From Octopus vulgaris (Eukaryota): a DNA stretch of 64,000 bases. Below the pieces are notes generated by a model. The model saw only the letters and a program-made list of their open reading frames with translations, had not been told where the DNA came from and did no database searches. The position numbers were made by a program, and so were the translations under genes. This document shows positions 43,020-44,393 of this stretch, piece after piece. Each line of letters begins with the position of its first letter. Positions within the stretch are counted from its first letter, which is position 1. The stretch covers positions 61,566,001 through 61,630,000 of the forward strand of contig OX597820.1 in NCBI GenBank assembly GCA_951406725.2, read 5' to 3'.

Positions 43020-44393
43020 ATGTTGAAACAGACTGGAAAAACATCATTCCACTGTAATATTTGTGAAAAGTCATTCTCCCAAGAAAGGGATTTAACTACC
43101 CATAAATGTATTCATACAGGAAAGAGTCCATATTCCTGTGATTTCTGTGGTAAACCCTTCACTAGGACAAGTCACCTAATTGCTCACAAACATATTCATA
43201 CTGGAGAGAAGCCATATCACTGTGATATCTGTGGTAAATCATTCTCTGATAAAAGTACTTTAACCAAACACAAACGTATTCATACAGGAGAGAGTCCATA
43301 TCATTGTACCATTTGTGGTAAATCATTCACTCAGACAAATCACTTAACTAGACACAAATATATTCATATTGGAAAGAAGCCATATGACTGTGATATCTGT
43401 GGTAAATCATTCACTGCTAAAGGTACCTTAACTACTCACAAACAAAACCATGCAGGAAGGAATCCATATCATTGTGATATCTGTGGTAAATCATTCTCTC
43501 GAAATTGTGACTTGACCACTCACAAACGTATTCATACAGGAGAGAGACCATATCACTGTGACATCTGTGGTAAATCATTCTCTACAGGAGGTCCTTTAGC
43601 TGCTCATAAGCGTACTCATACAGGTGAAAAGCCATATCATTGTGATATTTGTGGTAAATCATTTTCTATATCAGGTAATTTAAGCAAACACAAACACATT
43701 CATACAGGAGATTAGCCATATAATTGTGACATCTGTGGTAAATCTTTCTCTGCCATAAGTTCTGTAGCTACTCATAAACGCATTCATTCAGGCGAGTTGC
43801 CATATAATTGTCATGTCTGTGGTAAATCCTTCTCAATAACAAGTAACTTAACTAAGCATAAACGTATTCATACAGGAGAGAAACCATATCACTGTGATAT
43901 CTGTGGTAAACCGTTCTCTAGAAGTGATGATTTAATTACTCATAAACGTATTCATACAGGAGAGAAACCATATCACTGTGATATCTGTGGTAAATCATTC
44001 TCTATAGTAAGTAACTTAACTAAACACAAACGTTTTCATACAGGAGAAAAGCCGTACCACTGTAATATCTGTGGTAAATCATTCTCTGCAATGTGTCGCT
44101 TAAATATTCACAAGCGTATTCATATGGGAGAGAATCCATATCATTGTGATATCTGTGGTAAATCATTCTCTCAAGCAAGTCACTTAATTAGACACAAGCA
44201 TATTCATACAGGAGATAAACCATATCCTTGTGATATCTGTGGGAAATCGTTCTCTCAGAGTAGTGTGTTAACTAGTCACAGGCGCATTCATACAGGTGAA
44301 AAGCCATATCGTTGTGATATCTGTGGTAAGTCATTTTCTCGAAATAGAGATCTACCTACTCACAAATGTATCCTTATAAGAGAGAAGCCATAA
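43020..44393 (+). CDS. Tandem C2H2 zinc-finger gene with 16 fingers (last one degenerate) and an internal in-frame TAG at 43713-43715; truncated gene, pseudogene or recoded gene
   Basis: Repeated YxCxICGKSF...[13 protein letters not shown]. ORFs 43020-43715 and 43797-44393 share one frame and are joined by an intact finger ([27 protein letters not shown]). Degenerate finger remnants follow 44393. Confidence 0.9.

What the first reader, a model, noticed from the sequence alone, without database searches (positions are those of the whole stretch)
43020..44393. Zinc-finger array split 8+8 by a single in-frame UAG: candidate editing- or readthrough-controlled switch
Seen: the linker after finger 8 reads GGA GAT TAG CCA TAT (TGD*PY) where other linkers have Lys. 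The next 8 fingers stay in frame with no other stop, and Cys/His ligands are intact except the final His of finger 16. Known: UAG is the preferred ADAR triplet, UAG-to-UIG decodes as Trp (the HDV amber/W precedent), a C after the stop favours readthrough, and coleoid cephalopods recode extensively by A-to-I. Inference: the locus could make 8-finger and 16-finger proteins. The simpler explanation is a recent AAG>TAG nonsense mutation or a consensus error.
Basis: partly seen in the sequence, partly recalled or inferred. Interest (0 to 1): 0.75.

Follow-up and report, generated by a model that had tools for sequence, protein, structure and literature searches.

The report
Broken octopus zinc-finger gene, young stop
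An octopus zinc-finger gene of 16 repeats has a stop codon after repeat 8, most likely from a recent ordinary mutation like those in several sister genes, and nothing found here shows that RNA editing turns it into a switch.

Summary
In detail: 16 tandem C2H2 repeats, one in-frame TAG at 43713-15, seven intact fingers and one degenerate finger after it. The editing-switch reading is unsupported but not excluded. Against it: editable TAG is no commoner at this linker position than TAA (4 per 3122 AAG, 14 per 4440 AAA); the RNA around the stop folds worse than shuffles (z +1.49) and has no antisense partner in the window; other arrays in the genome carry similar mid-array stops; the family start codon is out of frame through a 4-nt gap. 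GAT-TAG fits one GA>TT doublet mutation. For it: a clean mid-array stop is rare (0 of 95 sampled arrays), the clean cases found are all TAG or TGA, fingers 9-10 show 3 of 3 synonymous differences in other animals, and another array encodes Trp there. Read data could not settle it: paralogs swamped both lays and no same-species raw RNA was offered. Verdict: most likely a young nonsense allele.

The parts
42952..43026 (+). Family start codon and leader, out of frame with the fingers: opens a 24-codon frame ending at TGA 43024-26, which overlaps ATG 43020
   Evidence: aligned with four paralog leaders
42992..42993 (+). 4-nt gap relative to 4 of 4 paralog leaders (placement approximate)
43020..43715 (+). 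ORF 1: 231 codons, C2H2 fingers 1-8, ends at the TAG
   Evidence: Pfam zf-C2H2 E 5e-42
43712..43715 (+). TT at 43712-13 where the family consensus has GA (inferred doublet mutation); TAG stop at 43713-15; candidate edited A at 43714
43716..44393 (+). In-frame continuation: 225 codons, fingers 9-15 intact, finger 16 degenerate, ends at TAA
   Evidence: Pfam zf-C2H2 E 6e-44
44313..44375 (+). Finger 16, last His replaced by Leu; the 3' contigs of X1, X2 and X3 show no listed difference in it
44394..44510 (+). Decayed finger-like remnants after the terminal stop
   Evidence: translation
44538..44563 (+). Two ATTAAA hexamers (44538, 44558), possible polyadenylation signals
   Evidence: function not tested

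Best explanation
This is one of the octopus tandem C2H2 zinc-finger genes, cut after finger 8 by an in-frame TAG that is likely a young nonsense mutation in a gene that likely made a 16-repeat protein until recently. Inferred mechanism: one GA>TT doublet turned the consensus Glu-Lys codons GAG AAG into GAT TAG (a plain AAG>TAG change, or TTG>TAG, are alternatives). The allele would make an 8-finger protein from ATG 43020, if any, since the stronger upstream ATG is out of frame. Fingers 9-15 would be intact only because too little time has passed. In a family this large, such alleles would segregate or drift under weak selection.
For: Single-copy locus, next paralog 80% identical. At this linker position the genome has TAG 4, TAA 14, AAG 3122, AAA 4440: no excess of the editable codon (Fisher p 0.15 with TAG the rarer; counts are not independent). 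Of 122 stop-motif loci examined (124 matches), 9 have 1 or more fingers before and 4 or more open fingers after the stop: 2 TAG, 3 TGA, 4 TAA. 34 of 95 sampled arrays carry a stop or frameshift. GAT precedes 2 of 4 TAG linkers but is 1.2% of GAN codons there (binomial p 9e-4, post hoc); GA>TT is a dominant tandem mutation in humans (PMC4158752 abstract). In simulation the downstream frame and its 28 ligands survive neutral divergence of 0.5% in 52% and 1% in 26% of runs, but 3% in 1%, so a young stop needs no rescue. No duplex at the site. Second lesion in the leader. Nearly all sequence of organisms C and D laid at 43713 reads A: X23 16 of 17 reads, X24 13 of 14, X9 13 contigs, X4 15 contigs, though mostly paralogous.
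Against: The age of the stop was not measured: no long contig of X1, X2, X3 or X5 crosses 43713, and one search lists no T>A row there, which is compatible with TAG in other animals or with no cover. The ortholog was never isolated. The clean single mid-array stops found (this one, L172, L193, L194, L201) are all TAG or TGA, each one A-to-I edit from Trp; the 4 TAA cases lie in two homogenised arrays with several stops. Fingers 9-15 deviate less from consensus than 1-8 (2.3 against 3.6 residues per finger), and 3 of 3 resolved differences in fingers 9-10 are synonymous (neutral chance 0.015-0.037); this fits a young stop but equally a rescued one. The leader break is weak evidence: many intact paralogs also lack an open leader.
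Confidence: 0.72

Rival explanations
1. Assembly consensus error: the animal has a sense codon and an intact 16-repeat frame.
For: Downstream fingers look constrained. No independent run was shown to hold the TAG. The region is an 84-nt repeat with thousands of near-copies.
Against: Two adjacent non-consensus bases fit a known mutational doublet, and the same GAT-T pattern recurs in unrelated arrays L023, L033 and L223. The site is not in a homopolymer.
Confidence: 0.13
2. Settled truncation: the 8-finger protein is the working product and fingers 9-16 are now untranslated relic. This is how many family members appear to have trimmed their tails.
For: Stops followed by 0-2 remnant fingers are common and shared among paralogs. 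Decayed remnants follow this array's own terminal stop.
Against: Seven fingers remain intact, which the simulation allows only below about 2-3% neutral divergence. Resolved differences are 3 of 3 nonsynonymous upstream and 3 of 3 synonymous downstream (p 0.1), the reverse of what this predicts.
Confidence: 0.08
3. Functional rescue: ADAR edits UAG to UIG (Trp), or ribosomes read through UAG-C, giving regulated 8- and 16-repeat proteins.
For: UAG-to-UGG stop-loss events are allowed for in a coleoid editome pipeline (PMC8382921 Methods passages). Downstream constraint. Clean mid-array stops are all TAG or TGA. One open array encodes Trp genomically at this linker position, with 8 fingers before and 5 after (L223). 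In the predicted folds A43714 is unpaired amid paired neighbours (mean pairing 0.78-0.83, among the higher of 15 linkers).
Against: That fold is weak: -29.7 kcal/mol over 201 nt, z +1.49, 193 of 200 shuffles fold as well. The longest antisense match in the window is 19 nt and misses the stop. No TAG excess. Trp occurs at this position in 0 of 1251 sampled distinct fingers and once genome-wide in this motif. No 43714 A>G row among the 40 shown. In a coleoid editing data set all but one site lay upstream of the first stop codon (PMC6881472 passage).
Confidence: 0.07

Closest known systems
Coleoid tandem C2H2 zinc-finger expansion (PMC9068888, PMC9795677; passages)
   Same: Tandem 28-residue C2H2 repeats with TGEKPY-type linkers and a short family leader; thousands of such linkers in this genome.
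   Different: Not in a dense cluster: the only array in the 64-kb window. Carries a mid-array TAG and a frameshifted leader.
Premature-stop alleles and pseudogenes in tandem zinc-finger families (general knowledge; seen here in L172, L193, L194, L201)
   Same: One nonsense codon in an otherwise intact array.
   Different: No known difference; allele frequency not measured.
Fungal stop-loss editing and edited 'functional pseudogenes' (PUK1, DBF2: PMC4817773, PMC13123824 search listing; PMC13684035 whole text)
   Same: In-frame UAG inside a conserved frame, one A-to-I edit from Trp.
   Different: Those are shown by RNA-DNA differences and are ADAR-independent; no editing is shown here.
Hepatitis delta amber/W site (recalled, not checked)
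   Same: UAG to UGG would give a short and a long protein.
   Different: Needs a defined RNA duplex and is conserved; neither is shown here.

Membership tests
Tandem C2H2 zinc-finger gene (octopus expansion) | Repeated C-x2-C-x12-H-x3-H fingers with TGEKP-type linkers | tested here: met
   15 full fingers and 1 degenerate; Pfam PF00096 and PF13465 above cut-off in both halves
Tandem C2H2 zinc-finger gene (octopus expansion) | Family leader in frame with the fingers | tested here: not met
   4-nt gap against 4 of 4 paralogs; not required, many intact paralogs lack it too
A-to-I stop-loss switch | In-frame UAG with an open, intact frame behind it | tested here: met
A-to-I stop-loss switch | G in RNA but A in DNA at the site | tested here: inconclusive
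   raw RNA only from organism D, paralog-dominated; no row among 40 shown, 63 hidden
A-to-I stop-loss switch | Stable duplex or complementary sequence covering the edited A | tested here: not met
   z +1.49; no antisense match over the stop within the 64-kb window; partners outside the window not tested
A-to-I stop-loss switch | Stop conserved across individuals and species | tested here: inconclusive
   no contig across the site in organisms A and B; A read in organisms C and D but ortholog not isolated
Programmed readthrough | Leaky context or 3' structure, and ribosomes past the stop | not testable with these tools
   +4 base is C; no stronger motif known to me (recalled); no ribosome data
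Young nonsense allele | Sense codon in conspecifics or the sister species | tested here: inconclusive
Young nonsense allele | Frequency and codon type in line with the mutational background | tested here: met
   with the caveat that the clean mid-array cases are all TAG or TGA

The most novel reading that the evidence does not exclude
Octopus ADAR edits this UAG to make a 16-repeat protein in nervous tissue and an 8-finger protein elsewhere, and the other clean TAG/TGA mid-array stops (L172, L193, L194, L201) form a small class of editing-gated zinc-finger genes.
Probability: 0.05. Interest if true: 0.75.

Novelty: new member of a known kind. Interest (0 to 1): 0.15.

Why it matters
If the best reading holds it matters little: one more broken copy in a huge, fast-turnover family. 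If editing were shown, it would be an animal case of a stop codon gated by ADAR that sets the length, and so likely the targets, of a transcription factor, and it would bear on the dispute over whether coleoid recoding is adaptive (PMC8382921, PMC6881472). I found no such report in paper searches, which cover open-access text only.

Tried and rejected
Protein searches for the ortholog were swamped by generic zinc fingers (best identity 59% and 61% among the 120 rows listed in each), and the exact look-up found neither ORF: no evidence either way. Lay 1 (X1, X2, X5, X3, all contigs): no long piece crosses 43713 and most depth is paralogous. Lay 2 (X23, X24, X9, X4): depth falls to 0-8 in the helix bins, so neither expression nor the allele of the true ortholog can be read. 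The 0.18-0.24 word shares of organism D can come from generic linker words and are not taken as evidence of expression. Tandem duplication of an 8-finger unit: rejected. A special intron skipping the stop: the two GT motifs upstream were not shown to be used. Inverted repeats flank the gene at 41-42 kb and 49 kb but do not include the array (25 longest of 1445 pairs shown). The pattern for stops at the His-Lys-Arg position found nothing. PMC5499236 was not held. Earlier-findings look-ups were empty. No supplements were read; the editing-site tables of the coleoid papers could list this site.

Full report
Observation. The frame from ATG 43020 holds 16 repeats of 84 nt. Linker 8 reads GGA GAT TAG CCA TAT, with TAG at 43713-15, and 225 open codons follow to TAA 44391-93. 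Fingers 1-15 keep their ligands; finger 16 lacks the last His. Both halves pass Pfam's zinc-finger cut-offs. Lys stands at that position in 9 of the 15 other linkers, not all. The halves are not duplicates.

Setting. The window is G000:C7:61566001-61630000 in a 2.80-Gb genome; the locus is single copy, and the next match is 80% identical. The linker motif occurs over 7500 times, which fits the octopus C2H2 expansion (PMC9068888 and PMC9795677, passages); proteins named from Octopus are among the hits. It is the only array in the window.

A second lesion. Paralogs share a leader of about 25 residues before the first finger. Here the matching ATG lies at 42952, and a 4-nt gap against 4 of 4 aligned paralogs throws it out of frame; it ends at TGA 43024-26, past ATG 43020. 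If the transcript includes it, the fingers would be reached only by leaky scanning (inference). The weight is limited, because many intact arrays also lack an open leader.

Background of stops. I sampled 98 loci not chosen for stops: best hits, first-listed places and two 100-kb blocks, so neither random nor independent. They gave 104 arrays of 5 or more fingers; 9 at a locus edge were dropped. Of the 95 left, 28 have an in-frame stop, 13 a frameshift and 34 either; none has a single clean stop with 5 or more fingers behind it. So the locus is unusual. Motif searches for stops at seven codon positions gave 124 matches, 122 examined. Nine have at least one finger before and four open fingers after: this one, L172 (TAG 14|5), L193 (TGA 2|17), L194 (TGA 12|4), L201 (TGA 1|7) and four TAA cases. 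At the linker-Lys position itself TAG is not enriched: 4 per 3122 AAG against TAA 14 per 4440 AAA (p 0.15).

Likely origin. GAT makes up 1.2% of GAN codons before the Lys, yet precedes 2 of 4 TAG linkers (p 9e-4) and 4 of 19 linkers that start with T (p 8e-5; post hoc). One GA>TT doublet on GAG AAG explains both bases, and GA>TT is a dominant tandem mutation in humans (PMC4158752, abstract; its transfer to octopus is my inference). Linker 9 has TTG in the same column, so TTG>TAG after local conversion is an alternative.

Selection behind the stop. One search lists 17 differences. Three are in the 3' flank; I dropped 8 coding rows as paralog-dominated. The 6 left lie on single contigs near single-copy depth: 3 in fingers 1-5, all nonsynonymous, and 3 in fingers 9-10, all synonymous (p 0.1 between halves; neutral chance of 3 of 3 synonymous 0.015-0.037). 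The long pieces hold further differences that the table does not list. Fingers 9-15 also deviate less from consensus than 1-8 (2.3 against 3.6; background median 2.6 over 81 frames). The downstream half therefore looks constrained until recently. A simulation keeps it intact in 52%, 26%, 7% and 1% of runs at 0.5, 1, 2 and 3% neutral divergence. A young stop explains this without rescue; an old stop would need rescue.

Editing tests. The 201 nt around the stop fold at -29.7 kcal/mol, z +1.49. A43714 is predicted unpaired among paired neighbours, but in a weak structure, and the longest antisense match in the window is 19 nt and misses the stop. Trp is absent at this position in 1251 sampled distinct fingers and occurs once genome-wide in the motif, in the open array L223, so it may be tolerated. 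Of 24 runs offered, only X23 and X24 (organism D) are raw RNA reads. At 43713, 16 of 17 reads of X23 and 13 of 14 of X24 read A, as does all contig depth of X9 and X4. No A>G row at 43714 is among the 40 rows shown, with 63 hidden. Depth drops to 0-8 in the helix bins, so most of this is paralogous and the test is inconclusive. The DNA contigs of organisms A and B have no long piece across the site.

Literature. A coleoid pipeline joins ORFs across UAG-to-UGG stop-loss edits (PMC8382921, Methods passages), so the mechanism exists in principle. A reanalysis found all but one editing site upstream of the first stop codon (PMC6881472, passages). Most octopus editing lies in introns and 3' UTRs (PMC9699675, passages). 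Fungal stop-loss editing is the closest shown case, and its general adaptiveness is disputed (PMC13684035, whole text; PMC4817773 and PMC13123824, search listing only). The hepatitis delta precedent is recalled. Searches listed no paper on an edited stop in a cephalopod zinc-finger gene.

Verdict. Shown: the array, the stop, the leader gap, the background counts and the weak fold. Inferred: that the stop is young, that it arose by a doublet, and that the product has 8 fingers. Odds: young nonsense allele 0.72, assembly error 0.13, settled truncation 0.08, functional editing or readthrough 0.07. Interest 0.15.

Noticed in passing
L223 (G000:C29:22532392): Open zinc-finger array with a genomic Trp at the linker-Lys position, GAT TGG, 8 fingers before and 5 after: the hard-wired form of what editing would give here, or a GA>TT doublet on an AGG codon.
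   Followed up: partly
L172, L193, L194, L201: Four other arrays with one mid-array TAG or TGA and 4-17 open fingers behind it; L193 has an intact leader and 17 fingers downstream.
   Followed up: partly
L214-L217 (G000:C8:16556-19179) and L221-L222 (G000:C31:2034495-2036620): Long arrays of near-identical fingers with repeated TAA stops; the first lies at the very start of C8.
   Followed up: no
window 43797-43799: Linker 9 has TTG (Leu) in the same column as the TAG, and linkers 8 and 9 alone end in AAT; 4 of 5 minus-strand reads of X23 show AA at 43797-98.
   Followed up: partly
window 304-33825: Exons of a gene ending in a glutamine amidotransferase domain (Pfam GATase_5 at 33496-33822, E 2e-34); likely FGAM synthetase (PFAS), a name that is recalled. 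Useful as a synteny anchor.
   Followed up: partly
window 46263-46451 and 47169-47357: 189-nt inverted repeat, 98% complementary, 717 nt apart, about 1.9 kb downstream of the array; may be the ends of a young DNA transposon.
   Followed up: no
window 50945-52090: Broken transposase-like frames; weak DDE_3 match below cut-off (E 3e-5); mariner-like by recall.
   Followed up: partly
window 8259-9723: 32-nt minisatellite, 45.7 copies, 94% matches.
   Followed up: no
window 44564: X1 (organism A) and X3 (organism B) share a 12-nt insertion and two substitutions in the 3' flank that the window and X2 (organism A) lack.
   Followed up: no
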